From positions 1 through 37,660 of the IMG/VR virus record IMGVR_UViG_3300029821_000014: a stretch of DNA of 37,660 bases. The stretch is one strand, 5' to 3'. Under the pieces are notes generated by a model, which was given only the letters and a program-made list of their open reading frames with translations, was not told where the DNA came from and did no database searches. The DNA is from a virus (Duplodnaviria; Caudoviricetes). Numbering within the stretch: the stretch's first letter is position 1; every line of letters begins with the position of its first letter. The position numbers were made by a program, and so were the translations under genes. Positions 1-37,660 of this stretch are shown here, one piece after another.

Positions 1-127
1 AAGTTCTCTCCACGTTTAGCATTGTGACATGATGTACACAGTAGTTGAAGGTTACTTTCATTGACTGAGATGCTATCATCATCAATGTTGTTTAATGATA
101 AAGGTATCTTGTGATGTACTTCATGAC
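1..127 (+). repeat. Terminal direct repeat, copy 1 (circular assembly overlap)
   Basis: Identical to 37534-37660. Confidence 0.95.
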
Positions 128-239
128 CTACATCTCCGCACTCTTCGCATATTCCCATGCGTTGTGCTCTTATATATGCTCGTGCCTTCTTCCATTTGCT
201 TGACTGATAGAATCTTATAATCTTTTCTGGTGTTGGCAA
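1..239 (-). CDS. HNH endonuclease, terminase-associated (5' part; continues across the junction to 37458; 104 aa)
   Basis: Manual translation from TTG at 239 behind an AAGGAGG RBS: MPTPEKIIRFYQSSKWKKARAY...CEECG...EVHHKIPL...NLQLLCTSCHNAKRG. Lies directly upstream of terS. Missing from the ORF track. Confidence 0.9.
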   Translation of the reverse strand, partial: MPTPEKIIRFYQSSKWKKARAYIRAQRMGICEECGDVGHEVHHKIPLSLNNIDDDSISVNESNLQLLCTSCHNAKRGEN

Positions 240-261
240 TATAGTCCTCCTTGCATATGTT

Positions 262-420
262 AAAACAGGTTAACAATTCTTTACTTAATCACTGTTACCC
301 TGCTGCATTCATGATGTTATCTATACTTTGGGATCTAGTTCCATAAAAATTGGGGGATTTTATACAGTACCAGAGCAAGGAGACTGTGGTTTCTAGGTCC
401 CAAAGTATAGATAACACTTT
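262..420 (-). ncRNA. Structured late-leader RNA or sRNA
   Basis: 24-bp inverted repeat 315-338/393-416 with one mismatch encloses two small hairpins. A further hairpin at 265-277/291-303 is followed by a short U run. Promoter immediately upstream. Confidence 0.6.
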
Positions 421-428
421 TCACCCTT

Positions 429-457
429 ATGCTATGGATATCAATATATTAAGTCAA
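429..457 (-). promoter_or_regulatory. Sigma-70-type promoter, putative late promoter
   Basis: TTGACT-N17-TAGCAT, located between the early-operon terminator and the packaging genes. Confidence 0.55.
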
Positions 458-506
458 TACCAAAACTGCATAGAGCGAAAATATGACACCTCCACGTAGT
501 GACAAT

Positions 507-530
507 AAAAAAAGGCGATTTATAACCGCC
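507..530 (-). terminator. Intrinsic terminator ending the early operon
   Basis: GGCGGTT-ATA-AATCGCC followed by T7, right after the PcfJ stop. Confidence 0.8.
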
Positions 531-2066
531 TTAGCTTACTGCCATTTCTGTTCTATTTCTGATATCACTAATGTTATCGTTTATCCAATTACTAAAAAAC
601 TGAGCAACATTTGCAGGATCTAAATTATTTGTACTTCGACATTGAACTACCTTCTCATTTCTAACTTCTACTGTATAGAATGGTTTATCAGGATATTTTT
701 TCTTCCTAATAAATAAAACGGCTGTTTCCTTCTTAGCTATTCTATCTAAATAATCGTACACGCAATGATTCAGAGTTTTCCCTTCAACATACAAGTCATC
801 AGATGATTTTGGAGCAATCAGAATGTAATCCTCATTAATTTCTACATTAAACAGTCTATTTGTCTGCCAAATTAATTCAAGAGTACGCTTCATCTCTTCC
901 TTAGCTTTTCTCATTCTTTCTTGTTGTTCTTGTTTTTCCTTAGCTTGAATAATCTTGCGATTTTTGAACTCTAGTGCTTCATCTGCATATCTTAGGTCCA
1001 TTTGTTCGATTTCTAATTGTGATTGCCAATTAAGTAAACATGACTTATATTCACCATTCGAGTAACTGTATTCCATGACAAGTAAAATGTCTTTAAACTC
1101 CTCAATCAAATCTTCCGGAAAAGTAAATTTATCTTTAGACAAATCTAATCCTATCTTGTAAATGTAACCTAGATACATTTTGTAGACATCTAAGAATACT
1201 TCACCAAACAAGGTTGCTGTTGTCTTTCTCCCCTTAATATACTTGATTAGTTTTCTTCTGTTTATCTCTGGATGATCTACAAGAAATCTAATCCAAAACT
1301 GATAATAGTATGATTCAGATATATCAAGAAACATAAATTCTGGATCTTCAAAACCTTGTTTTTTTAGTTCGATGATTCTTCTATAGTGCCACAGTCCTTT
1401 TCCTCGTAGTTTAAAGAAATCTTGATATTGTTTAAACAGTTTGAAGTCTATGTTTTCATACGATGATGCTAGTTCAGTAGCCAATCTTGTATATCCTGAC
1501 TTTATTAACATTTCAATTTGCCATAGATGTTCTTTTTGAAATCTGTTATTTAATAATGGATAAAAGTTTACATACTTGAGCTTCTCAAAGTCAATATATT
1601 TGAATTCAGGAAGTTCTTTGACAAGTTTTATGTCTTCTTCGCTCGGTTTATAGTCAGTTCTATAAAATGAATTTGAAGGATTTGAGTTTGCATTATATTG
1701 TGTGTAAGAATTTACCCAAATACCAACACTTGTAGACTTCCAAGTTGCAGCATGATAGACATGACATGCTCCGCTTTCAACTTCAAAAAATGCTGCAACC
1801 CAAGAGTTTTTCATCATTAAATACTTTTTCTCTAGAATAGTGACATATTTTATTAAATACAATTGAGTTCTTTCCATCGTTGGCATGAGTAGATTAATTG
1901 CTTGCATCATATCTTTGGTTGACTCAAAGTTCTCTTTATAGTCTTTTCTGTGCTTATATAAAAGCTTCGGATTTGTTTTATAGAAATCTCTTAGATTTTC
2001 TAACTGATCTTTATTCAAACCAAAGAATGACTCTTCAAATGTTATAACCTCTTTTTTCATAATCAT
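531..2066 (-). CDS. PcfJ-like domain protein
   Basis: C-terminal APKSSDDLYVEGKTLNHCV...LFIRK...PFYTVEV...VVQCRS matches the PcfJ signature. Coupled to a PcfK-like gene. Confidence 0.85.
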   Translation of the reverse strand: MIMKKEVITFEESFFGLNKDQLENLRDFYKTNPKLLYKHRKDYKENFESTKDMMQAINLLMPTMERTQLYLIKYVTILEKKYLMMKNSWVAAFFEVESGACHVYHAATWKSTSVGIWVNSYTQYNANSNPSNSFYRTDYKPSEEDIKLVKELPEFKYIDFEKLKYVNFYPLLNNRFQKEHLWQIEMLIKSGYTRLATELASSYENIDFKLFKQYQDFFKLRGKGLWHYRRIIELKKQGFEDPEFMFLDISESYYYQFWIRFLVDHPEINRRKLIKYIKGRKTTATLFGEVFLDVYKMYLGYIYKIGLDLSKDKFTFPEDLIEEFKDILLVMEYSYSNGEYKSCLLNWQSQLEIEQMDLRYADEALEFKNRKIIQAKEKQEQQERMRKAKEEMKRTLELIWQTNRLFNVEINEDYILIAPKSSDDLYVEGKTLNHCVYDYLDRIAKKETAVLFIRKKKYPDKPFYTVEVRNEKVVQCRSTNNLDPANVAQFFSNWINDNISDIRNRTEMAVS

Positions 2067-2542
2067 TCATCTTCTTCATTATAGTCATCATCATCAGATT
2101 CATTACTATCATTTTCCATGAAATCAAAAATTGATATACGTTCAAATGATGCTTTATTTTCATCTTCAGGTTTCTTGATGTTCTTTTCTTTTTTAATTTG
2201 AACTTTTTTACTTGCAATAGTTGTAGTTTCATAGGTTGTTTTGCTAGTTTTTATTTTACCTACTTCACTTTCTATCGTTTCATTAGATTCAATAAAATAA
2301 TGAATTGCCCAACCAAAAACTACATTAGGCATAACATGTCCTGATTTACTCCCTAGGTGTTGTTTAGCTTTTTCCATGATGTAAGCCCAACAATTCTCAT
2401 AGCTTTTTTCAGGACTATTTAAGGAGTCTCTTAGCTGTTTATCAAAAACGGATGACTCCTCACAATAAATTTTGATAGCTGATAGTTGATCTTCTGCCAT
2501 CATTGCTTTTAGTAAAATTTCATTATTTCTCTGTTCGTTCAT
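2063..2542 (-). CDS. PcfK-like protein (family that includes AcrIIA9)
   Basis: KSYENCWAYIMEKAK...VFGWAIHYF motif and a C-terminal ISIFDF. Directly upstream of PcfJ. Confidence 0.8.
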   Translation of the reverse strand: MNEQRNNEILLKAMMAEDQLSAIKIYCEESSVFDKQLRDSLNSPEKSYENCWAYIMEKAKQHLGSKSGHVMPNVVFGWAIHYFIESNETIESEVGKIKTSKTTYETTTIASKKVQIKKEKNIKKPEDENKASFERISIFDFMENDSNESDDDDYNEEDE

Positions 2543-2858
2543 TGTTTTCCTCGCTCTGGATACCTCTGATGGGTAAGTTATAGTCTTTCATTGTTTTTCG
2601 CACAGTCTTGTACGATACTTTATACTTGCTTGCAATTGCTGAAATAGACCATTTTTTCTTATTGTATAATTCAATCAATTTTTCTTTAGAGACAAGTCTT
2701 TTAAATGGATTATTAACAACAGCATTCATTTTTTTTAATCTTCGATAAATAGTATCTTGTGACACGTAGTTTAGAGCTGCAATTTTTTTGATTGTAATAC
2801 CGTTTTGATATTGATAGAGAATTGTCTTATCGTGTAAATCTATTCTTTTAGCAGCCAT
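2523..2858 (-). CDS. Tandem helix-turn-helix protein
   Basis: Two HTH-like repeats: TIKKIAALNYVSQDTIYRRL and SISAIASKYKVSYKTVRKTM. Confidence 0.7.
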   Translation of the reverse strand: MAAKRIDLHDKTILYQYQNGITIKKIAALNYVSQDTIYRRLKKMNAVVNNPFKRLVSKEKLIELYNKKKWSISAIASKYKVSYKTVRKTMKDYNLPIRGIQSEENNERTEK

Positions 2859-4716: not shown

Positions 4717-4740
4717 TTGCTTACCTCTTTTCGTGTGTAG

Positions 4741-4885
4741 AAAATCTTACATAACCGCTAGAACTGTAAAATTTTCTATTTTTTTATTTAATGCTTACTT
4801 TTTAGCCTTATTGACTTATCAAGTGCGGTTATTCAAATCAAATATTTTTAAAATAATTTACCGTAATGCTAAATCCCGTTAAATT
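4741..4885. other. Bipartite res-like recombination site, copy A
   Basis: Two imperfect 11-7-11 palindromes starting at 4744 and 4856. Homologous to 8553-8697. Confidence 0.65.
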
Positions 4886-5498
4886 ACTCTTTTTTTGGTT
4901 CTAAAAGATACATAATTTGCTTGATGGATTCACCACGTTGATACACTGCATAAATTCTAACTTTATCACCAGGACGAACAGCTGTATCTTCTGCTTCAGA
5001 ACTTAATCCAAGAGCTGCAGCATGACCAGCAATATAACCTTCACAAATCTCTTCAGATGTGATTTCATCAGCTAGATAATCTGAAGTTCCATCAATTGGT
5101 TCTATTGAATTCTCAGGTGTTACAATTGCTTCACATGAAAAGATACCATAGACACAAGCACTGCATAAATCATCCGTAACCCAGTAGCAACCACCGGCAC
5201 AAGCATGGTCCTGAGTGCATTCACAAACCTTACAGAAACGAGGATCCTTATCAAAGAGTGATTCTTCTTTTTCAAGCTCTCCTTCTTTGATAACCTCAAA
5301 TACTTTTTGAGAGTATGGTTCTTTATGATTCACAACATAGTAAGCTTGTCTAATTTCCTTACCTAGTTTAAAGCGTTCATCTTCAATCTTTTGCATGATG
5401 TTAGCAAGCTGCACTGCTTCATCAGAAGTGATCAGCGTTAATACATCTTCTCTTTTAATAACAATGTGAGTATTAGTTTTTACTTTAAATTCCTTCAT
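4884..5498 (-). CDS. Hypothetical protein with Cys-rich motif
   Basis: CKVCECTQDHACAGGCYWVTDDLCSAC, probably metal-binding. Confidence 0.65.
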   Translation of the reverse strand: MKEFKVKTNTHIVIKREDVLTLITSDEAVQLANIMQKIEDERFKLGKEIRQAYYVVNHKEPYSQKVFEVIKEGELEKEESLFDKDPRFCKVCECTQDHACAGGCYWVTDDLCSACVYGIFSCEAIVTPENSIEPIDGTSDYLADEITSEEICEGYIAGHAAALGLSSEAEDTAVRPGDKVRIYAVYQRGESIKQIMYLLEPKKE

Positions 5499-6741: not shown

Positions 6742-7115
6742 AAATGCACCTCATGTAACTGATCTATAAATTCTTGCCTTTTTTCATAAGTGATTCCGAG
6801 TAGAAAATTTGCAACCTTCAATCCGCATTCAACATCGTATTCTGATAGATCATTTTCGTTCTCTTCAATCCATAGAATCATTTGGTGTATATTATGATCT
6901 TCATAGTCTCCTTCTTCAAAAGCATTATGTAAGCCACATTGCATCGATGAGGTGTAACAGTAGTTTGCTGTTGCGAATGCATCGCTATAAATCAATTTGT
7001 TATATTCTTTTTGATGTGCTGCTTCATTCATTATGACTAATAAAGAAATGACAAGCATTGCTACAAACATCATCAGATATAGGATTAACTTCATAGCATT
7101 CTCACTGATTTTCAT
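6726..7115 (-). CDS. Hypothetical membrane-anchored protein
   Basis: N-terminal hydrophobic helix; overlaps neighbouring genes. Confidence 0.6.
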   Translation of the reverse strand: MKISENAMKLILYLMMFVAMLVISLLVIMNEAAHQKEYNKLIYSDAFATANYCYTSSMQCGLHNAFEEGDYEDHNIHQMILWIEENENDLSEYDVECGLKVANFLLGITYEKRQEFIDQLHEVHLWENQ

Positions 7116-8062
7116 ATTATTACCTCATCTGAAATACTTATGTCATTAAAGTTTGCTTCTTGTAGAATCTTTATGAGTTTCTCTACTTGTGGACTTCTCC
7201 ATGCGGTCATTGCATATGTATGAACTGTGTCATTGTAATGGTAATGATTCCGTTTGATATGCTCTTGGCATTCACGCTTTGTTAAAAACATTGTGTCTTG
7301 CTTGATAACATGAACTTTTTGTACAGGTACTTGATAGTATTCTTCTCTGACATACTTTGGTAGGTCATCATAGTCATTGATTGAATCTAAATGAAAATCC
7401 TCTTGGTCTTCAAATTCTTCCAAGCCTTCTTGATTGAAGTGTCCGTTTGAATTAAGGTAATCACTTTTTTTCAAGCGTTCTTTCAAAGCTTCAAAAGATT
7501 CATATGTAGTTTCACCATGACAGTAATAGTGGTCTTGAGCGTTTTCTTCCCAACAGTCATGCCATTCGTATTGAGCTACTACCCAGAAGCGTGGGTCTGC
7601 TTGACCAACTGTATCTTGAGTTTTAAGTTCTTCCTGAAGTGCTTTTAAGAACTCAATTTGCTCTCTAGTAAGTCCAGTTCTCTTTTTGTGTGTATTTGGA
7701 ATGACAGCAACATATCTTGCATATCTAAAGCCCTCTGAGTTCACTAACAATGAGTAGTCGCTTTCCTTGCAGAAAACTTCAATGCAATTTTCTACGAGAT
7801 CTCCATCCCTAAACATTATGTTCAACTTGTTGAAGTCTTCGATGAATGGTTGATCTTCAAGTAGATTTATTTTAAAACTACTAAACTGTTCTTCACTCAT
7901 TTCATATTCAGCTTTGATGTTGTATTGAGAACTGTCTTCATGGTGTTTAAAGGGGAAGAAACCAAGTTGAGAAACATGACCTGGCTTTCTATAAAATATA
8001 GCTCTGTTCATTCCTTTCTTGATTGGTTTATCTAATGGGTATTGTGGTTCTCTTGTTTCCAT
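7112..8062 (-). CDS. Two-domain hypothetical phage protein (DUF6329-like N-terminus)
   Basis: LLVNSEGFRYARY motif in the N-terminal half. TQDTVGQADPRFWVV...NHYHY...HTYAMTAWRSP in the C-terminal half. Confidence 0.6.
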   Translation of the reverse strand: METREPQYPLDKPIKKGMNRAIFYRKPGHVSQLGFFPFKHHEDSSQYNIKAEYEMSEEQFSSFKINLLEDQPFIEDFNKLNIMFRDGDLVENCIEVFCKESDYSLLVNSEGFRYARYVAVIPNTHKKRTGLTREQIEFLKALQEELKTQDTVGQADPRFWVVAQYEWHDCWEENAQDHYYCHGETTYESFEALKERLKKSDYLNSNGHFNQEGLEEFEDQEDFHLDSINDYDDLPKYVREEYYQVPVQKVHVIKQDTMFLTKRECQEHIKRNHYHYNDTVHTYAMTAWRSPQVEKLIKILQEANFNDISISDEVII

Positions 8063-8086
8063 TTTTTAAATCTCCTTCGCTCTGGA

Positions 8087-8524: not shown

Positions 8525-8552
8525 GAGTTATTCTCCTTTCTTTGTAGTTTAA

Positions 8553-8697
8553 AAAATCTTACATAACCCCTAAATCTGTCAATTTTTTTGAAACACTTTA
8601 TTTCTTTAAATCGTTCGCACTATCATGCGGTCAACTCCGTTTTTTTAGTTCTTTGCTTTTCAAAATAATTTACCGTAAAGTTAAATCCCGTTAATTT
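8553..8697. other. Bipartite res-like recombination site, copy B
   Basis: Palindromes starting at 8556 and 8668; 30/35 and 33/36 identity to the subsites of copy A. Confidence 0.65.
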
Positions 8698-8753
8698 CGT
8701 TATTTTTCATAATTGTTTGTGCTATAATGAAAATAAAAACTGGGGGTTTGTAA

Positions 8754-9326
8754 ATGGAATCAACATTAATAGTCATCGCTTTAATTTCAGGTGGTTTTCC
8801 AACAATTGGATTAATTGTAACTACCATTGTCAATGCGAAAAATAGGGTTAAGGACATTCAGACAACAACTAAATTAGAACTATATAAAGAAAATATGATT
8901 AAACGTCAAAATGCATATCAGTCTATTGTGAGTACTGCAAGGGATCTTGGTACTAGATTTACAACTTGTATATATGTGTTCTCAAGAAGCATAAAGAATG
9001 AATCTTTGCATCATGATGGACTTGATTATGAAGATAAAAATGATTTTTTCTATAGATACTTCTTGTGCTTTTTCAATGACTATAAAAACATTGAAAAAAA
9101 TAACATAATTTACTCAAGTAATAAAGCAAACATTTTATTAAAAGAGCTAACACAATCAATATTTAACTTAGGATCTGCACTTGCAAATATTGGTAATGGT
9201 GGATTTATAATTAGAGCAGACTCTAGGAAAACGCTTGAAGGATATAGGGAATCATTTGATAATGCATTCGATAAATATCTTAGTAATGTATTTGACGAAA
9301 ATGAATCACTTATTGTAAAAATTTAG
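8754..9326 (+). CDS. Membrane-anchored moron protein
   Basis: Opposite strand to the operon. Extended -10 TGcTATAAT near 8720-8728, GGGGG RBS, N-terminal TM helix. Confidence 0.7.
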   Translation: MESTLIVIALISGGFPTIGLIVTTIVNAKNRVKDIQTTTKLELYKENMIKRQNAYQSIVSTARDLGTRFTTCIYVFSRSIKNESLHHDGLDYEDKNDFFYRYFLCFFNDYKNIEKNNIIYSSNKANILLKELTQSIFNLGSALANIGNGGFIIRADSRKTLEGYRESFDNAFDKYLSNVFDENESLIVKI

Positions 9327-10091: not shown

Positions 10092-10745
10092 TTATTTCTT
10101 ATGTACTCCACCAAGGTATGTAGCTGCTCTTTCTTTTTCCGCATCCACACTATCCCACATGACATATAATTGAGTTGTTGGAATATCATTATGGTTGTAC
10201 ATCTTGGATAATGTTTGCCATGATCCACCATTGAGAATATATTGGTGACCAAATGTCTTTCGTAAACTATGCAGTCCGAATGTATAGGCAATGCCTATCG
10301 CTTGGGCTGTTTTGCTTACAATTGAGTGTCCTTGCTGCCTTGTGATTGGTAAATAATAGTCAAGTCCATCCTGCTTTGTTTTTTGACCCATGAACATGTA
10401 GTCATACTCAGTAAGACTATTTCTTTTAACATAGTCGATTATATCCTGGTGTAAATCTTTATTCATCCGAAAGTTCTGCATCTTACCAGTTTTATTTTCC
10501 TTTATAGACACATAACCTTTGCTAACATCCTTTACTCTTAACTGCAGCAAATCTTCAGCTCTGAACGCTGTATTGAATCCAACTAAGCAAACCATCCAAT
10601 TACGATCAGCTTGATACTTCTTAACAGGTGTTTTTGCTTGTTCTCTTTTTTTTAACAAGTAGTACATAAATCTTTCTATTTCCTTTGGATCCTTGATAGG
10701 TAGCGTTTGCTGCTGTCCACCGAAAGTCTTAACTCGTCTGGCCAT
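10092..10745 (-). CDS. Small tyrosine recombinase (resolvase-like)
   Basis: Catalytic set R (AFRAEDLL), K (ENKTGK), HSLR, H (YNH), Y (TQLY). 217 aa, no arm-binding domain. Confidence 0.9.
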   Translation of the reverse strand: MARRVKTFGGQQQTLPIKDPKEIERFMYYLLKKREQAKTPVKKYQADRNWMVCLVGFNTAFRAEDLLQLRVKDVSKGYVSIKENKTGKMQNFRMNKDLHQDIIDYVKRNSLTEYDYMFMGQKTKQDGLDYYLPITRQQGHSIVSKTAQAIGIAYTFGLHSLRKTFGHQYILNGGSWQTLSKMYNHNDIPTTQLYVMWDSVDAEKERAATYLGGVHKK

Positions 10746-12355: not shown

Positions 12356-12769
12356 CTACTCACTTTGAGTTGGTTGATTTGCCAGTTTGATGCATGTTTC
12401 ACATGAATGAGATTCATCTTCATTTTTTCTTAACATAATAGGATCATGCCAGGTTAAACATCCTGAGCATTGAACAAAGCTAGCTGGAACCAGAACTTGC
12501 ATCGCTGTAAGAAGATTTAAATCTTCATTGATAGCTACATCAATCCTCTTAAAGAGAGATTCTGGTTTCTTTCCGACAAATGAGGTTATGAATATTTTCT
12601 TTCTCTTGAGTGAAATTGAAATACTTTTGAAATGTTTAGAACCTTCTTTTAATCTATACGTAGCAATCACTCCAAATTCATCAATCTTTATGTCATTCGT
12701 GTGAAACCGATCTTTAATGTTATCTATTTCACTTTGAGTAAAGATCTCATTGGTTAATTTAACTTTCAT
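12356..12769 (-). CDS. Hypothetical protein with C-terminal zinc finger
   Basis: CSGC...CETC. Confidence 0.6.
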   Translation of the reverse strand: MKVKLTNEIFTQSEIDNIKDRFHTNDIKIDEFGVIATYRLKEGSKHFKSISISLKRKKIFITSFVGKKPESLFKRIDVAINEDLNLLTAMQVLVPASFVQCSGCLTWHDPIMLRKNEDESHSCETCIKLANQPTQSE

Positions 12770-12783
12770 ATTTGCACCTTGTC

Positions 12784-13281
12784 CTATTCTTTATTTTGAT
12801 GTATAATTATTTTGGTTTCTTCCTTGCTCTGGATTTGACCATTGAACGCATTCGCCCCTCCAGGTTGAGCGTTCTTTTCTTTTTCCTTGAAATATATGTC
12901 AATATATCCAAGTCTTAATGCGAAATCTCTAACACGTCTCATGAACCAATCATTCATGTCTCGATAACCTGCTCTTCGAAAGTTTTCTTTGCACATAAGC
13001 TTCTTTAACTTTCGAGGCAATCTGACATGAACATGGAAATGAGGATAGTCTTCAGGAACATTGAACCGGTTGTTTAGACTCTTTAATAGCTGCAGTTCTT
13101 TTCGTTCATACAACTCTAATCTGTTCTTCCCAAGTGATTCTTCTAAAGCTAGCATTACTTGTGGTGTTGGAAGAACCTCATAGTTTTCAATTAGGGATAG
13201 AATCATCGGACTGATTTGGACCTTCTCAGCTAGATCAGTTTGACGATATCCTTTTTTTCTTCTTATGATTCGTATGTTCAT
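12784..13281 (-). CDS. XRE-family HTH protein
   Basis: IRRKKGYRQTDLAEKVQISPMILSLIEN. Confidence 0.8.
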   Translation of the reverse strand: MNIRIIRRKKGYRQTDLAEKVQISPMILSLIENYEVLPTPQVMLALEESLGKNRLELYERKELQLLKSLNNRFNVPEDYPHFHVHVRLPRKLKKLMCKENFRRAGYRDMNDWFMRRVRDFALRLGYIDIYFKEKEKNAQPGGANAFNGQIQSKEETKIIIHQNKE

Positions 13282-13619
13282 GCTTGCTGACCTTTTTGAC
13301 TTAAAAATCTTTCCATGTTATTCAACTTACTGAAATCTAGATTGTTAACTTTGCACCATTCTTTATATGAAGGAACAACTCCTGGATCTAATGACCAATC
13401 GATTTTTTTAATTGCTTCTTCTGATAAACCGATTTTTCTAAGTCTTATTGTTATACCTTCAATGATTGCTTTTTGTTCATTTTGCTTGCATCTCTCAGTA
13501 GTTTCGTTTGACTTGATTAGTCCATAAAATAAAGTTGTCTCTGTTAGTGCAGACTTAGCTTCACTAATAACATCAACAACTTTTTCACTTTCAATAGATA
13601 ATTTATTTTTCTTTTTCAT
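13278..13619 (-). CDS. Hypothetical protein
   Basis: AAGGAG RBS; ATGA overlap with the downstream gene. Confidence 0.6.
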   Translation of the reverse strand: MKKKNKLSIESEKVVDVISEAKSALTETTLFYGLIKSNETTERCKQNEQKAIIEGITIRLRKIGLSEEAIKKIDWSLDPGVVPSYKEWCKVNNLDFSKLNNMERFLSQKGQQA

Positions 13620-13749
13620 CGTTTTTCTCCTTGCTCTGGATTATTTGATTTTCTTTCCATGCTGCATATTCTTCAGGATGCTTTATTTTGTAGTCAACTG
13701 CCGCAGCAGCTAATTGATACATAGAAGATTTGCTGATTTTTATTTTCAT
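13603..13749 (-). CDS. Small hypothetical protein (48 aa)
   Basis: Manual translation MKIKISKSSMYQLAAAAVDYKIKHPEEYAAWKENQ...; GAGG RBS. Not in the ORF track. Confidence 0.55.
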   Translation of the reverse strand: MKIKISKSSMYQLAAAAVDYKIKHPEEYAAWKENQIIQSKEKNDEKEK

Positions 13750-33249: not shown

Positions 33250-33900
33250 TTATTTTTGATTTCTAATCAGATTTCTAATCTGTGTTTTTTTAGCTTCTAA
33301 CAAAGCTCTTTTTTGCGCATCTGAGGACTCCACCTCTTGTAAACGAATTGCCTCCGCATCTTCGAATCTTCTCGCATAAAGATCTGTTTGCTCGTAAGCT
33401 GGATGTGCAACAGCTGCAACATCATAGAGTTTTTTAATCTTTCTAACAGTCCATGTATGGGTGTCTTCATTGAAACTCTCTTCACCTATTGAAAACGCGA
33501 AACTCATCTTATCAATGATTCCACTTCTGACTAGTTCATATAAATCTCTACCTGCTGTTGTATTAGATAATTTGGCTTTAATGAATAAACCATCTTCTCT
33601 AATTTCAAGTTCTAAACTTCCTTGTTTAACGCGTGCAACGACCATATTATCGTCATGGTTGAACTTTAAGAAACATTCTCTAGTATCTGCTTCATCTACA
33701 GCATGACCATCGATGATTTCTTTATACTCGACTCCGTTATACTTAAAAAGAACAGTTTCTTGATTAAAGACAATTGCTTGACCTTCGATAATCATGTCTT
33801 GATTGTCATCAGATAAGTCAACTGCTCTAATATTCACGATCTCCCTAATATAATCTACTCTTCGCGCTCTTATATCATTTGGTTTCAGTTTTGGTTTCAT
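33250..33900 (-). CDS. HK97-family prohead protease
   Basis: FNHD, KMSFAF and LYDVAAVAHPAY motifs. Confidence 0.92.
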   Translation of the reverse strand: MKPKLKPNDIRARRVDYIREIVNIRAVDLSDDNQDMIIEGQAIVFNQETVLFKYNGVEYKEIIDGHAVDEADTRECFLKFNHDDNMVVARVKQGSLELEIREDGLFIKAKLSNTTAGRDLYELVRSGIIDKMSFAFSIGEESFNEDTHTWTVRKIKKLYDVAAVAHPAYEQTDLYARRFEDAEAIRLQEVESSDAQKRALLEAKKTQIRNLIRNQK

Positions 33901-35083
33901 CTGGTTTTTCCTCCTTGTTATCCTTGTATTTATTATCCAAATCCATATCTTGATAGTTCAAGAACATATACGTTTTATCTCCACCTTCAATTGGGTCCAT
34001 GTACAAGAGTTTATTGACATCATTTGGACGGTGAATTGGAGATTTTTGAAGAGTTTGTGCTGCCATGAGTCTTGTTTTAAGTGATGCTGTTTGCAACCTA
34101 TTAGCATCAACAATAACCTCGTTTCCAAACTCAATTTCTCTTTGAGTCAGTAGTTTTTGAGTGAGTTGTGCAGAAAGTTTCATGACAAGTGGTTCAATTG
34201 ATGATTCATAATAGCTTTGCCAATCATCTTCAGAGAATGTTGCATCGATGATTTTTCGATTGATTCCTAAATAATTGAATATTTTTTGCTCCAACATGGT
34301 CATAACTTCTTGACCAGCATATTTTCCTTTTGAAGTATCAAGTTGCACCACCTGTTGTGCTGCATCCAGGTAAGCTACACCAACTGAATCTTTACCTAGG
34401 TATTTAGCTGCGAATGTTTCTGCTCTTTTCTCTTTTTCTTTATCAGATAAAACTGTTGGTGTTGAGACTAGAAATCGAATAAAAGCACTCATAGTGATGG
34501 ATTGCTTCATCCCTTCATAATTCGTTTGAATCAGTTCAATAACGTTATTGATAGATGAGTCGATTTTTCCAAATGGATCTATTAAATGGCCAGAATTCCT
34601 TGAAATATGTATCATTTGATCTGAGTCTGCATAGAAATCTTGACTCTCGATTTTAAACTTGTAATAGATCTTCAACCCATTGACTCTAAGCTCTATTTCA
34701 TCAGGTGGAATAATCCATAAATTAGCGAGTTCTTCGTGAATTGATGTGTGATTATATTCGAGAAAAATGAATGCGTTATTGAGTTGAAAATAATCGAGTG
34801 TCAATCTTTCCCAAAATGTTGGTGCATCCATAATTGGATTCGGTCTAGTTTTGAGTATGTAATTCATCCTGGATTTATTGGTAGATATCATTCCATTGTA
34901 ATAAACCTGCGGACGAAGTTTTGCACCATGTCTCCCATGGGCAAGACAAGCTGATACAAAGGTATCATTTAAACTAGGATTTGATGTGTTACTAAATCTT
35001 GGAGTAAACATATCCATGGATTGTGCTGTGTATGATTTTTCTTTCCCTTTGAGTAAATTTTTAATAAAATCCCATGCTCCCAT
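33875..35083 (-). CDS. Portal protein (HK97 family)
   Basis: RPNPIM...NNAF and MDPIEGGD motifs; position after terL. Confidence 0.92.
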   Translation of the reverse strand: MGAWDFIKNLLKGKEKSYTAQSMDMFTPRFSNTSNPSLNDTFVSACLAHGRHGAKLRPQVYYNGMISTNKSRMNYILKTRPNPIMDAPTFWERLTLDYFQLNNAFIFLEYNHTSIHEELANLWIIPPDEIELRVNGLKIYYKFKIESQDFYADSDQMIHISRNSGHLIDPFGKIDSSINNVIELIQTNYEGMKQSITMSAFIRFLVSTPTVLSDKEKEKRAETFAAKYLGKDSVGVAYLDAAQQVVQLDTSKGKYAGQEVMTMLEQKIFNYLGINRKIIDATFSEDDWQSYYESSIEPLVMKLSAQLTQKLLTQREIEFGNEVIVDANRLQTASLKTRLMAAQTLQKSPIHRPNDVNKLLYMDPIEGGDKTYMFLNYQDMDLDNKYKDNKEEKPDETKTETK

Positions 35084-35095
35084 ATAGTCCTCCTT

Positions 35096-36796
35096 CTACT
35101 CCAAGTAATTATCAACATTTTTAGATAGAGCAACATAACAGTTGAGTATAGTTGCTGCTCCATCGATTTTTCTTTCTCTTTGATCGTTTAGTTTCTTAGG
35201 CATCCAGTTACCATTCCGATCTGTCTCTAACTCAATATTCGTAAAGCACCATTTGGTTACCGGATTATTTTGATAACACAATATATTCTCAATCAGATGA
35301 GCTGAAAGTAATTGCATGGGTACCGATAGTGTTTTATATCCTTGCTGAGTTGCAATCAAACAGGTATCTCTTTGGTAACCACGTTGAACAAACTCTTCGA
35401 TGAGATAATTCGCTGAATATGAGTCATAATTGATGAATTGATACATCCATCCTCTATCCTTGAAATTATCTGTCACATAATTCGCGACATCATGATAGTT
35501 AATAAGTTCTGTACCGCTGATTCTTACTAAACCTCTTTCAACCCAGGATTGCCAAGGAATCTTATTTTTCTTATCAGCAATTCTCTCGTTGTAAAATTTC
35601 GCTGTAATCCAATACATTGTTATTGCGATGGGTCTACGTTTCTCTTTATCAAATAGAAGAGTGTTAAAAGCTGTCATGTCACCTGTTCTTGATAAATCAA
35701 ATCCACCCAATACCCAAGTGTTATCAAATTTCTTTAACTGTTCTTCGGTGTAAACAATTGCTTTCCCATCTTGATCGACTACATGAATATCGTCATAACT
35801 TAACCATGCTTTGTTTTCAACACCACGCAAATTGAAATCCTTTGCTTTAACAGTGTTTGATACATTTCGATCTGATTGCATTCTTTGAACTTGCTCAGTC
35901 AAATACTCCCATTTTTTGATTACACCAAGTGATGGATTTGCTTTTGGCCAACACTTTGGATCTGATATTTCTGATTCACTATCTAGTTCATAGATGAGTG
36001 GTAGAAATGTATCATCAGGACTAATTCCTTCCAGAACGTTAATTGCATGATCGTAAATATCATCATATAATCCACCTCTAACAAATCCTGCGGTTGTAAT
36101 CATACTTATCAATGTCTCTTCACGAACTGATGTTGCTTGTTTTAATATGTCATAAATGGATCTAGGCAGTTCATGCACTTCATCAATAATTGCTGTGGAT
36201 ACATTTAAACCATCGAATGTTTTGACATTTGAGGATAGAGCTCTAGCGTATGAAGCAGATCTCTTTAACTTGATGGTAAGTGGTGGTGAGAGACGATAAT
36301 TAAAGATTCCAGCTAAATCATTGTCTTGCTCGATCATGCTGATTGCTTCCTGAATAACTCTCATTGCCTGAGATGTGACAGTAGCTGCAGCATATACCTC
36401 TGCACCTTTCTCTATAAGCGTTGCCCATAGGACCAATGGAGCATGTTCTGTTGTCTTACCATTCTTTCTTCCTTCTACAGTAAAGACTTCTTTAAACCTT
36501 CTTTTGTTCGTCTCACGATGTAATATTCCAAAGATTGCTTGCCATTTTGCTTTCTGAAATAGCATGAACTCTAGGGGTTCTCCTGTCCATTCGCCTTTGG
36601 ATTGTTTGCAAAAAGTTTCAGCAAACTCTATGTACTTAGATCCTGGTACTGGATTAAAGTAGTACTTAGGATTTTCATCATTAATAATTGGTTTAAACCA
36701 TTCGAGATAAACCTTTTTAACTTTCTTGGATACTCTGATTCGTCTAGACTCAATCTCATGAATGTATTCTGCAATGTAATTTTTGGGTTCGTGCAT
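35096..36796 (-). CDS. terL: Terminase large subunit
   Basis: GRKNGKT Walker A, IIDEVH Walker B, GFDLS and KIDGAA nuclease motifs. Confidence 0.96.
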   Translation of the reverse strand: MHEPKNYIAEYIHEIESRRIRVSKKVKKVYLEWFKPIINDENPKYYFNPVPGSKYIEFAETFCKQSKGEWTGEPLEFMLFQKAKWQAIFGILHRETNKRRFKEVFTVEGRKNGKTTEHAPLVLWATLIEKGAEVYAAATVTSQAMRVIQEAISMIEQDNDLAGIFNYRLSPPLTIKLKRSASYARALSSNVKTFDGLNVSTAIIDEVHELPRSIYDILKQATSVREETLISMITTAGFVRGGLYDDIYDHAINVLEGISPDDTFLPLIYELDSESEISDPKCWPKANPSLGVIKKWEYLTEQVQRMQSDRNVSNTVKAKDFNLRGVENKAWLSYDDIHVVDQDGKAIVYTEEQLKKFDNTWVLGGFDLSRTGDMTAFNTLLFDKEKRRPIAITMYWITAKFYNERIADKKNKIPWQSWVERGLVRISGTELINYHDVANYVTDNFKDRGWMYQFINYDSYSANYLIEEFVQRGYQRDTCLIATQQGYKTLSVPMQLLSAHLIENILCYQNNPVTKWCFTNIELETDRNGNWMPKKLNDQRERKIDGAATILNCYVALSKNVDNYLE

Positions 36797-37290
36797 TATG
36801 CTTCATTCCGATCTACTAGTGCTAACACACCATTAACTTTCGGTTTCTTTACAGCTGCCATAGCACCTACTCGTGCACGACCTGATGGAGTTAACATCAA
36901 GTGTTCTGATAAGTTTTCCATTTTCTTAGATTGCTTGTCCATGATGGTTAGTACCTTTTCAAGTTTGATGAACTGATCTGCATCCATGTCTTCTTTAGCA
37001 GCTTTTGCCCAAATCTTCTGTCCGGATGTGTAGATTGCATAAGACTCACAATACACCATGAGCATCGACGTGTCGAGTTGCGTTATTAAATTAAGTTCAG
37101 CACTTTCAAATAATCTGATAATCTCCCTGAATTTTCTTCTAGCTATGACTGATAATCCTTTAGGCATTCTAACTTTTTGGGTTGGTGACACAGCTTCTTC
37201 AAATTCTTTACGATCTTCAATTTCTTTATTGGACTTCTTATGTTTACTATTGTCTATTGTCTTTGCTGAATGTGCTTTTCTTCCTGACAT
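36796..37290 (-). CDS. terS: Terminase small subunit (P27-like)
   Basis: PKGLS...YCESY...LMLTPSGRAR. Confidence 0.88.
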   Translation of the reverse strand: MSGRKAHSAKTIDNSKHKKSNKEIEDRKEFEEAVSPTQKVRMPKGLSVIARRKFREIIRLFESAELNLITQLDTSMLMVYCESYAIYTSGQKIWAKAAKEDMDADQFIKLEKVLTIMDKQSKKMENLSEHLMLTPSGRARVGAMAAVKKPKVNGVLALVDRNEA

Positions 37291-37374
37291 ACTTTAACCT
37301 CCCTTAAAGGGGTTCTAAAAATCTATATAAAATAAAACTGTTTTCAATATCTTTCAAAAATCGGCAATTTATCG

Positions 37375-37440
37375 CGAAACACCCCACACCCGGTGTACAA
37401 CGAATACATTTGACTGATTTAGGGTGGGGGGTATCCCTAC
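37375..37440 (-). other. Candidate cos region
   Basis: GC-rich CCCCCCACCC and CCGGGTGTGGGG tracts between the HNH stop and terS, the usual cos position in HNH/P27-terS phages. Confidence 0.5.
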
Positions 37441-37457
37441 ACAAATGTATTCATAAC

Positions 37458-37660
37458 TTATATTTGATTGTGTTTATATTGCTTTCTTTGAACTAAATCA
37501 CCATTTGAATCGAATTCAACATCACTTCTTATCAAGTTCTCTCCACGTTTAGCATTGTGACATGATGTACACAGTAGTTGAAGGTTACTTTCATTGACTG
37601 AGATGCTATCATCATCAATGTTGTTTAATGATAAAGGTATCTTGTGATGTACTTCATGAC
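37458..37660 (-). CDS. HNH endonuclease (3' part)
   Basis: Reads ...NLQLLCTSCHNAKRGENLIRSDVEFDSNGDLVQRKQYKHNQI with TAA at 37458-37460. Confidence 0.85.
   Translation of the reverse strand, partial: HEVHHKIPLSLNNIDDDSISVNESNLQLLCTSCHNAKRGENLIRSDVEFDSNGDLVQRKQYKHNQI
37534..37660 (+). repeat. Terminal direct repeat, copy 2
   Basis: Identical to 1-127. Confidence 0.95.

What the first reader, a model, noticed from the sequence alone, without database searches (positions are those of the whole stretch)
247..457. Late-leader RNA with an anti-Shine-Dalgarno loop that matches its own downstream RBS and four early-mRNA sites
Seen: a minus-strand promoter (457-429) leads directly into a 24-bp stem (315-338/393-416) enclosing two hairpins, with loops CUCCUUGCUCUGG (382-370) and UCCCCCA. 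The first loop is complementary in cis to the HNH RBS GCAAGGAG (254-247; about 11 bp with one bulge if the small stem opens). It is complementary in trans to CCAGAGC(A/G)AGGA at 2548, 8071, 12821 and 13626 (14 nt perfect at 13626). The A-to-G variant keeps pairing through G-U. A further hairpin with a U run (262-303) could end or attenuate the RNA. Known: C-rich loops are how sRNAs such as RNAIII and RsaE block ribosome binding. Inference: an RNA-based early/late switch in which the leader silences early genes, or early mRNAs free the late RBS. No ArpU/RinA-like late activator is apparent in this genome.
Basis: partly seen in the sequence, partly recalled or inferred. Interest (0 to 1): 0.82.

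Follow-up and report, generated by a model that had tools for sequence, protein, structure and literature searches.

The report
Twin-seed phage RNAs silencing early genes
This temperate phage and its relatives carry a conserved hairpin at the head of the late genes whose loop mirrors the ribosome-binding sites of early genes and changes in step with them, plus a second, likely separate small-RNA gene with the same mirror sequence, so the phage probably switches its early genes off by RNA pairing, although neither RNA has been shown to be made.

Summary
Mostly confirmed, with one reinterpretation. The hairpin (315-416, here E1) is real and conserved behind pcfJ in related phages, including Acholeplasmataceae prophages: 6 of 26 stem pairs change on both sides while a 12-nt loop seed is invariant in 5 of 5 close members. 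In a loop-blind test the leader of the first gene after cro ranks 1-2 of about 40 leaders in 6 of 8 genomes, including a lineage with a wholly different loop. The 12821 'target' is no ribosome site: its other strand looks like a second small-RNA gene (RNA2, about 12813-12884; promoter, same seed, terminator; 7 of 9 phages). The cis pairing to the HNH site is not conserved (0 of 8 relatives). Best reading: E1, likely made from the late promoter, represses early translation in trans; RNA2 would do so earlier. No RNA data exist. No Rfam match; no paper found. New variant of a known kind; interest 0.7.

The parts
505..532 (-). Intrinsic terminator closing the early operon behind pcfJ
   Evidence: a hairpin plus U run at the same place in relatives
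492..500 (-). Conserved ACTACGT-type box about 40 nt upstream of the -35; candidate activator site (inferred)
   Evidence: also before the late leader of G005/G007
429..457 (-). Predicted late promoter, -35 TTGACT (457-452), 17 nt, weak -10 TAGCAT (434-429)
   Evidence: TTGAC invariant, 17-nt spacer and TAnnnT kept in relatives
315..416 (-). E1: long outer stem 416-393/338-315 enclosing two hairpins
   Evidence: 6 of 26 pairs with two-sided change; 9 G-U cells against 2 unpaired cells
370..382 (-). E1 seed loop, anti-Shine-Dalgarno
   Evidence: 12 nt invariant in 5 of 5 close members; pairing tests 11, 75, 86, 109
345..361 (-). Second, C-rich hairpin of E1; only in the closest lineage; no target established
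262..299 (-). Downstream hairpin with short U run, candidate attenuator or 3' end of E1
   Evidence: a hairpin of other sequence at this place in lineages i-iii, none in G005/G007
243..254 (-). HNH ribosome-binding site that can pair with the loop in cis; window-specific
13626..13639 (-). Target site on the Shine-Dalgarno region of the first gene after cro (13278-13619); the target conserved in all four lineages
8071..8085 (-). Target site on the Shine-Dalgarno region of 7112-8062; in relatives the tag stands before various unrelated genes
2548..2559 (-). Target site on the Shine-Dalgarno region of pcfK (2063-2542)
12779..12807 (+). Predicted promoter of RNA2, TTGTCC-17-TATAAT
   Evidence: hexamers kept in 7 of 7 copies
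12813..12884 (+). RNA2: predicted ~72-nt small RNA, seed hairpin (seed 12821-12834) then terminator hairpin and U run; antisense to the 3' end of the HTH gene
   Evidence: (z = -3.2)
13278..13619 (-). 113-aa all-helical protein of unknown family, main target gene
   Evidence: no family or fold named
12784..13281 (-). XRE-type HTH regulator overlapping the stop of the target gene; its tail overlaps RNA2 and is not conserved
2523..2858 (-). Tandem-HTH protein, candidate late activator (inferred)
   Evidence: orthologues in relatives

Best explanation
E1 is a conserved structured element at the 5' end of the late operon whose loop is complementary to tagged ribosome-binding sites of early genes; it is likely transcribed when the predicted activator-dependent late promoter turns on and would then block translation of those genes in trans, above all the first gene after cro, as late-to-early negative feedback. 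Shown: the fold's co-variation, the complementarity, its conservation and co-variation with the targets. Inferred: transcription, timing, release as a free RNA (by the downstream hairpin or by RNase III cutting the long stem) or action while still part of the late mRNA, and repression as the outcome. A second predicted RNA (RNA2, + strand 12813-12884) with a near-consensus promoter carries the same seed; it would silence the same tags earlier or in the lysogen and also pair in cis with the early mRNA, as lambda OOP does.
For: Element kept directly behind pcfJ although the window's packaging genes are of another type than in relatives. Stem: 98.7% of cells paired, 6 pairs with two-sided change, 9 G-U cells on this strand against 2 unpaired cells; slid controls 35-42%. 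Seed invariant while the stem varies. Sites lie on Shine-Dalgarno regions of early genes only, on the mRNA strand. With opening costs the loop still binds the three early leaders at -12.9 to -17.8 kcal/mol; five control leaders gave +0.4 to -9.6. Loop-blind test: orthologue leader rank 1,2,2,1,2,1 of 39-45 in W, G002, G006, G005, G007, G178, 0 of 60 shuffles each. E1-specific co-variation: in G006/G178/G173 the loop pairs in two blocks with that leader, and in G178 RNA2's match has decayed (-19.9 against -28.5 for E1); in G005/G007 a different loop pairs in two blocks with the same orthologue (-21.2, -20.4) while it gives -5 to -7 on the window-type leaders. In G005/G007 the boxed promoter runs without terminator into the first late gene, which ties it to the late operon. 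Hosts of two prophages encode RNase III.
Against: No RNA holder is listed, so expression and timing are untested (see Tried and rejected). In G003/G001 E1 pairs weakly with the orthologue (-16.4, -14.2; rank 3-4 in 75, rank 7 in 109; 2 of 60 shuffles) and better with the G006 leader (-22.7) than its own; G173 ranks 6 in the blind test. There RNA2 fits the tags much better (-21.6 against -13.4), so RNA2 alone could explain the tags in lineages i-iii. Folding energy favours the other strand in 3 of 8 (window, G005, G007). G005/G007 hairpins are matched to E1 by position, not sequence. Only four lineages, so counts are not independent. Loop windows were chosen after seeing the matches. The function of the main target gene is unknown, so the effect on lysis versus lysogeny is open.
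Confidence: 0.58

Rival explanations
1. Same pairing, other timing: the promoter is always on and the downstream hairpin stops it, so E1 is a constitutive short RNA that helps hold lysogeny by silencing leaky early transcripts (the pR'/StxS arrangement combined with a C4-like role).
For: Near-consensus invariant -35; a hairpin with a short U run follows E1 in lineages i-iii; StxS shows such a product can be a regulator (81, abstract).
Against: Weak -10 and a conserved upstream box suggest activation; U runs are short; G005/G007 have no such hairpin; RNA2 already has the anatomy of a constitutive silencer.
Confidence: 0.17
2. The tags are served by RNA2 or by a protein (start-associated sequences, small TCC-N7-GGA hairpins), and the E1 loop is a duplicated relic or a decoy for that protein.
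For: RNA2 seed fits own-genome tags best (longest perfect runs 9-15 nt own against 6-7 nt on lineage ii for the window; 10-14 against 5-6 for G003); E1 fit is poor in lineage ii; the tags can form 3-5-bp hairpins; mycobacteriophage SAS are a precedent of unknown function.
Against: Seed invariance in a varying stem; E1-specific two-block pairings; lineage iv lacks RNA2 and the tag yet keeps loop-leader pairing with new sequences. A decoy would carry the tag's own sense, not its complement.
Confidence: 0.12
3. E1 is a sensor: early mRNA binds the loop and thereby frees the HNH ribosome site or lets transcription pass into the late genes.
For: 11-bp cis pairing in the window, net -9.9 kcal/mol; a downstream hairpin that could be an attenuator.
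Against: Cis pairing to the first late gene absent in 8 of 8 relatives; the stem of 23 or more pairs isolates the loop from the downstream hairpin; the 3' half of the seed, which only early sites match, is invariant.
Confidence: 0.09
4. A DNA element (invertible segment or cruciform between inverted repeats; repeated operator).
For: Near-perfect 24-bp arms; an extra tyrosine recombinase in the early region; strand asymmetry of folding is not uniform.
Against: One-sided changes are mostly G-U compatible; arm sequences are unrelated between lineages; tags are all on the mRNA strand over Shine-Dalgarno sites; one contig spans 1-446 in 4 of 4 DNA runs with no inversion joint listed (contigs drop rare variants).
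Confidence: 0.04

Closest known systems
C4 antisense RNA of phages P1/P7 (passages of PMC5320573; PMC8201110)
   Same: Phage RNA whose loops pair in trans with early phage mRNA and cover ribosome-binding sites; specificity segment differs between phages together with its target.
   Different: No Rfam match; C4 is ~77 nt, three stem-loops, RNase P-processed, in the immI region and aimed at the antirepressor operon; E1 heads the late operon, has one long stem and several dispersed targets.
StxS of Stx phages (PMC7547250, abstract and opening text)
   Same: Regulatory RNA arising from the 5' end of the late transcript.
   Different: StxS comes from a constitutive, Q-antiterminated promoter, binds Hfq and targets stx1AB and host rpoS; E1 targets early phage genes, its promoter looks activator-dependent, and Hfq was found in 0 of 5 host genomes (possibly incomplete).
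Lambda OOP RNA (passages of PMC5869508; PMC5415839; PMC12197685 part 2)
   Same: For RNA2: ~70-77 nt, own promoter and terminator, antisense to the 3' end of a regulator gene shortly behind cro, host has RNase III.
   Different: No sequence likeness tested positive; the overlapped gene is an XRE-type HTH, not cII; RNA2's 5' seed also matches two to four other early ribosome sites, and a paralogous seed sits in the late leader.
Start-associated sequences of Cluster K mycobacteriophages (passages of PMC3203893)
   Same: Private 13-bp tag at ribosome sites of non-structural genes, symmetric outer bases, and a single opposite-strand copy in four genomes.
   Different: Different sequence, 11-19 copies against 3-5 here; no partner RNA was named in the passages read.
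C-rich-loop sRNAs RNAIII/RsaE (recalled, no call)
   Same: Anti-Shine-Dalgarno loop on a stable hairpin, no Hfq needed.
   Different: Host chromosomal RNAs with generic seeds; here the seed extends into a phage-private tag.

Membership tests
C4 antisense RNA | Match to the Rfam model / three-stem-loop fold | tested here: not met
   No hit at gathering score in the window and none to C4 at E up to 5 for 200-600 or 12600-13000 (72, 73); fold differs
C4 antisense RNA | Loop pairs in trans with own-phage ribosome-binding sites and co-varies with them | tested here: met
   By computation only
C4 antisense RNA | Target is the antirepressor operon | tested here: inconclusive
   Main target protein has no named family or fold
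C4 antisense RNA | RNase P processing | not testable with these tools
   No RNA holder listed
StxS / pR' leader RNAs | Encoded at the 5' end of the late operon | tested here: met
   Behind the early terminator and before the first packaging gene in all records examined
StxS / pR' leader RNAs | Constitutive promoter, tR' and Q antiterminator | tested here: inconclusive
   No Q-family hit among 60 proteins scanned in PHROGs and 38 in Pfam; downstream hairpin has only a short U run
StxS / pR' leader RNAs | Hfq binding | tested here: inconclusive
   Hfq in 0 of 5 host genomes, completeness not given
OOP RNA (for RNA2) | Own promoter and terminator, antisense to the 3' end of an early regulator gene | tested here: met
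   7 of 7 copies
OOP RNA (for RNA2) | Overlapped gene is cII; sequence homology to oop | tested here: not met
   XRE-type HTH; no Rfam hit over gathering score
OOP RNA (for RNA2) | RNase III cleavage of the hybrid | not testable with these tools
   RNase III present in 2 of 2 hosts searched; cleavage untested

The most novel reading that the evidence does not exclude
A two-RNA timer: one phage-private tag on early ribosome sites is read by two RNAs with the same seed, an OOP-like RNA that holds the lytic programme down until early mRNA (its perfect complement) titrates it, and a late-leader RNA that re-imposes silencing once late transcription starts, all without Hfq in a phage of wall-less bacteria.
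Probability: 0.35. Interest if true: 0.85.

Novelty: new variant of a known kind. Interest (0 to 1): 0.7.

Why it matters
Early-gene shut-off in temperate phages is usually credited to proteins (recalled). A late-leader RNA that feeds back on early translation, with a second RNA sharing its seed, would be an RNA-only layer of developmental timing. The natural loop-target swaps between lineages give ready-made orthogonal pairs for a direct test and point to the first gene after cro as an unrecognised key regulator. The likeness to start-associated sequences suggests a testable explanation for such tags in other phages.

Tried and rejected
Expression: no RNA holder listed, 4 DNA runs of one study; this says nothing on expression. 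Rfam: 0 hits at gathering score; only sub-threshold hits. A single-protein PcfJ scan of viral contigs found no relative; terminase relatives L006-L009 lack the element. Of 16 viral matches to the E1 seed pattern 3 were the element (1 new) and 13 were chance, mostly coding. Of 76 viral matches to the RNA2 pattern 3 were RNA2, none new. Pattern search of 307 genomes gave 85 with a match, nearly all chance; real copies in G006, G067, G173, G178. G067 is the same prophage as G003 and was not counted twice; L019/L020 likewise. G098 and G312 (distant pcfJ) showed no RNA2 and no tag set in the stretches fetched; L015/L021, L022, L017, L023, L026-L033 and G213 were not analysed for a late leader. RNAalifold found no consensus structure for RNA2 (4 pairs) because the sequence alignment misregisters three unrelated terminator stems; the claim rests on single folds. 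Protein-level cause of RNA2 conservation rejected: frame and tail differ, tail absent in four orthologues. Cis switch on the HNH site rejected as a conserved feature. No target established for the C-rich second loop. Main target protein: confident model (pLDDT 84.8) but no fold match above background (93-95; best Z 8.1, helical hairpin only), no family; HTH partner model poor beyond its HTH. Rho RNA-binding domain in 0 of 2 hosts and Hfq in 0 of 5: incomplete genomes possible. Nine literature searches listed no paper on this element; the library lacks most subscription papers, and I read no supplements (the review PMC12197685 lists 38 further sRNAs in a supplement I did not see).

Full report
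Setting. The window is a complete circular temperate siphovirus genome (127-nt terminal overlap; direct terminal repeats) with serine integrase, cI/cro-like pair, replication genes, pcfK-pcfJ and an HK97-type late module. Its DNA occurs in four groundwater runs of one study. Two relatives are prophages in records titled Acholeplasmataceae and Paracholeplasma; the window's own host is inferred from these.

Observation. The promoter-like hexamers, the long stem (23 pairs and one mismatch), both inner loops, the 14-nt complement at 13626 and the 11-pair cis match to the HNH site are in the sequence. The four sites are the loop's four best partners in the genome, with a gap to the rest, and 4 matches at up to 2 mismatches compare with 0.43 expected. 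The 8071 site has an extra base. Three sites cover Shine-Dalgarno regions (genes 13278-13619, 7112-8062, pcfK); 12821 does not.

Conservation of the hairpin (E1). A PcfJ profile gave related loci. E1 stands directly behind pcfJ and its terminator in L011/G002, L014, L018, L035 (lineage i), G001/G003 (ii) and G006/G173/G178 (iii), although these have another packaging module than the window. In lineage i, 6 of 26 stem pairs change on both sides, 98.7% of cells pair, and one-sided changes give 9 G-U cells against 2 unpaired ones, which favours the minus strand; 12 loop bases are invariant in 5 of 5. Whole-hairpin energy favours this strand in 5 of 8 records and the other in 3. The -35 is invariant, the -10 weak, and a short box lies upstream. 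In G005/G007 (lineage iv) such a box precedes a shorter hairpin that leads without terminator into the first late gene, so this is most likely the late promoter.

A second RNA. The 12821 site has no start codon behind it in any relative. On the + strand it reads as a small-RNA gene: promoter at 12779-12807, seed hairpin, then a hairpin and U run ending at 12884 (z = -3.2). It is present in 7 of 9 phage records (W, G001, G002, G003, G006, G173, G178; not G005, G007) with three unrelated terminator stems before an invariant U run, independent of reading frame or protein tail. Its seed tracks the tags: window seed -26.1 kcal/mol on own sites against -17.6 on G003's, G003 seed -21.6 against -17.9; the G006 seed is less selective (-25.9 own, -24.6 window, -21.1 G003). 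RNAalifold did not recover a consensus on the sequence alignment.

Does E1 matter beside RNA2? Three results say yes. Its seed is fixed inside a varying stem. In lineage iii its loop pairs in two blocks with the leader of the first gene after cro, and in G178 RNA2's match there has decayed. In lineage iv, which lacks RNA2 and the tag, a different loop pairs in two blocks with the leader of the same orthologue, and cross-pairs with the window fail (-5.9 and -11.0). In a test blind to the loop, that leader ranks 1-2 of 39-45 in 6 of 8 genomes with 0 of 60 shuffles each, and 6 and 7 in G173 and G003 with 2 of 60 (region ends and orthologue starts were set by me; G001 left out because its first copy holds an N). 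Against: lineage ii pairing is weak and not self-specific, and four lineages are few.

Cis switch. The loop pairs with the first downstream gene's leader only in the window (-17.2 against -5.0 to -9.7 in 8 relatives). It may be a local add-on but is not the conserved function.

Mechanism. Most likely E1 is made when late transcription starts and masks tagged early ribosome sites in trans (0.58); RNA2 would do the same earlier and pair in cis with the early mRNA. With opening costs both RNAs bind the three early leaders at -12.9 to -17.8 kcal/mol. Hosts searched have RNase III (2 of 2), which could trim the long stem; Rho (0 of 2) and Hfq (0 of 5) were not found. Transcription, timing and repression are inferred. 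The main target protein folds confidently but has no named relative, so the effect on lysis versus lysogeny is open.

Comparison with known systems. It works like C4 (passages), sits like StxS (abstract and opening text), and RNA2 is built like OOP (passages); the tags recall start-associated sequences (passages). I also read parts 1-2 of 6 of the review PMC12197685, the abstract of PMC4825925 and only the listing of bioRxiv 10.1101/2024.10.31.621285. It is a member of none: no Rfam match. Nine searches listed no paper on it. Earlier notes of this scan describe E1 on another genome (e1-3504167) and similar logic in unrelated phages; these are unchecked AI notes and not support. A look-up with the RNA2 sequence returned nothing.

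Verdict. Real, conserved and co-varying; a new variant of a known kind; untested in the cell. Interest 0.7.

Noticed in passing
window 417-2567 and 2862-2891: DNA contigs branch at 417-446, 2535-2567 and 2862-2891 and depth drops over the pcfK-pcfJ block (29 against 174 in X4), suggesting a co-occurring strain with another block; the 33-nt piece holding the 2548 target has higher depth than its flanks.
   Followed up: no
window 4735-4895 and 8547-8707: Repeated 41-nt and 77-nt intergenic element, similar text before tagged genes in L018; candidate repeated early promoter or cassette junction.
   Followed up: no
window 10092-10745: A short tyrosine recombinase in the early region in addition to the serine integrase, 67-98% identical in relatives, more than its neighbours.
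   Followed up: no
window 1-239 and 33875-37660: The window's HNH-terminase-portal block is of another type than in its pcfJ relatives (terminase about 30% identical to theirs, 55-65% to L004-L009): a module swap just behind E1.
   Followed up: partly
G003 and G001, start of the gene before the large terminase; also L018:13125: A late packaging gene carries an 8-9-nt match to the seed on its ribosome site, as the HNH gene does in the window; possible secondary late target.
   Followed up: partly
window 345-361 (-) and 12853-12863 (+): C-rich second loops occur in both E1 and RNA2 in lineage i and in neither in lineages ii-iii; E1's could kiss the G-rich mirror loop in the early mRNA.
   Followed up: no
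window 8754-9326 (+): The leader of this opposite-strand ORF is the best partner of E1's second hairpin (-18.4 kcal/mol without opening cost); may be chance.
   Followed up: no
L033:7116: A tag-like sequence before a start codon near a distant pcfJ-like gene in a record titled Treponema.
   Followed up: no
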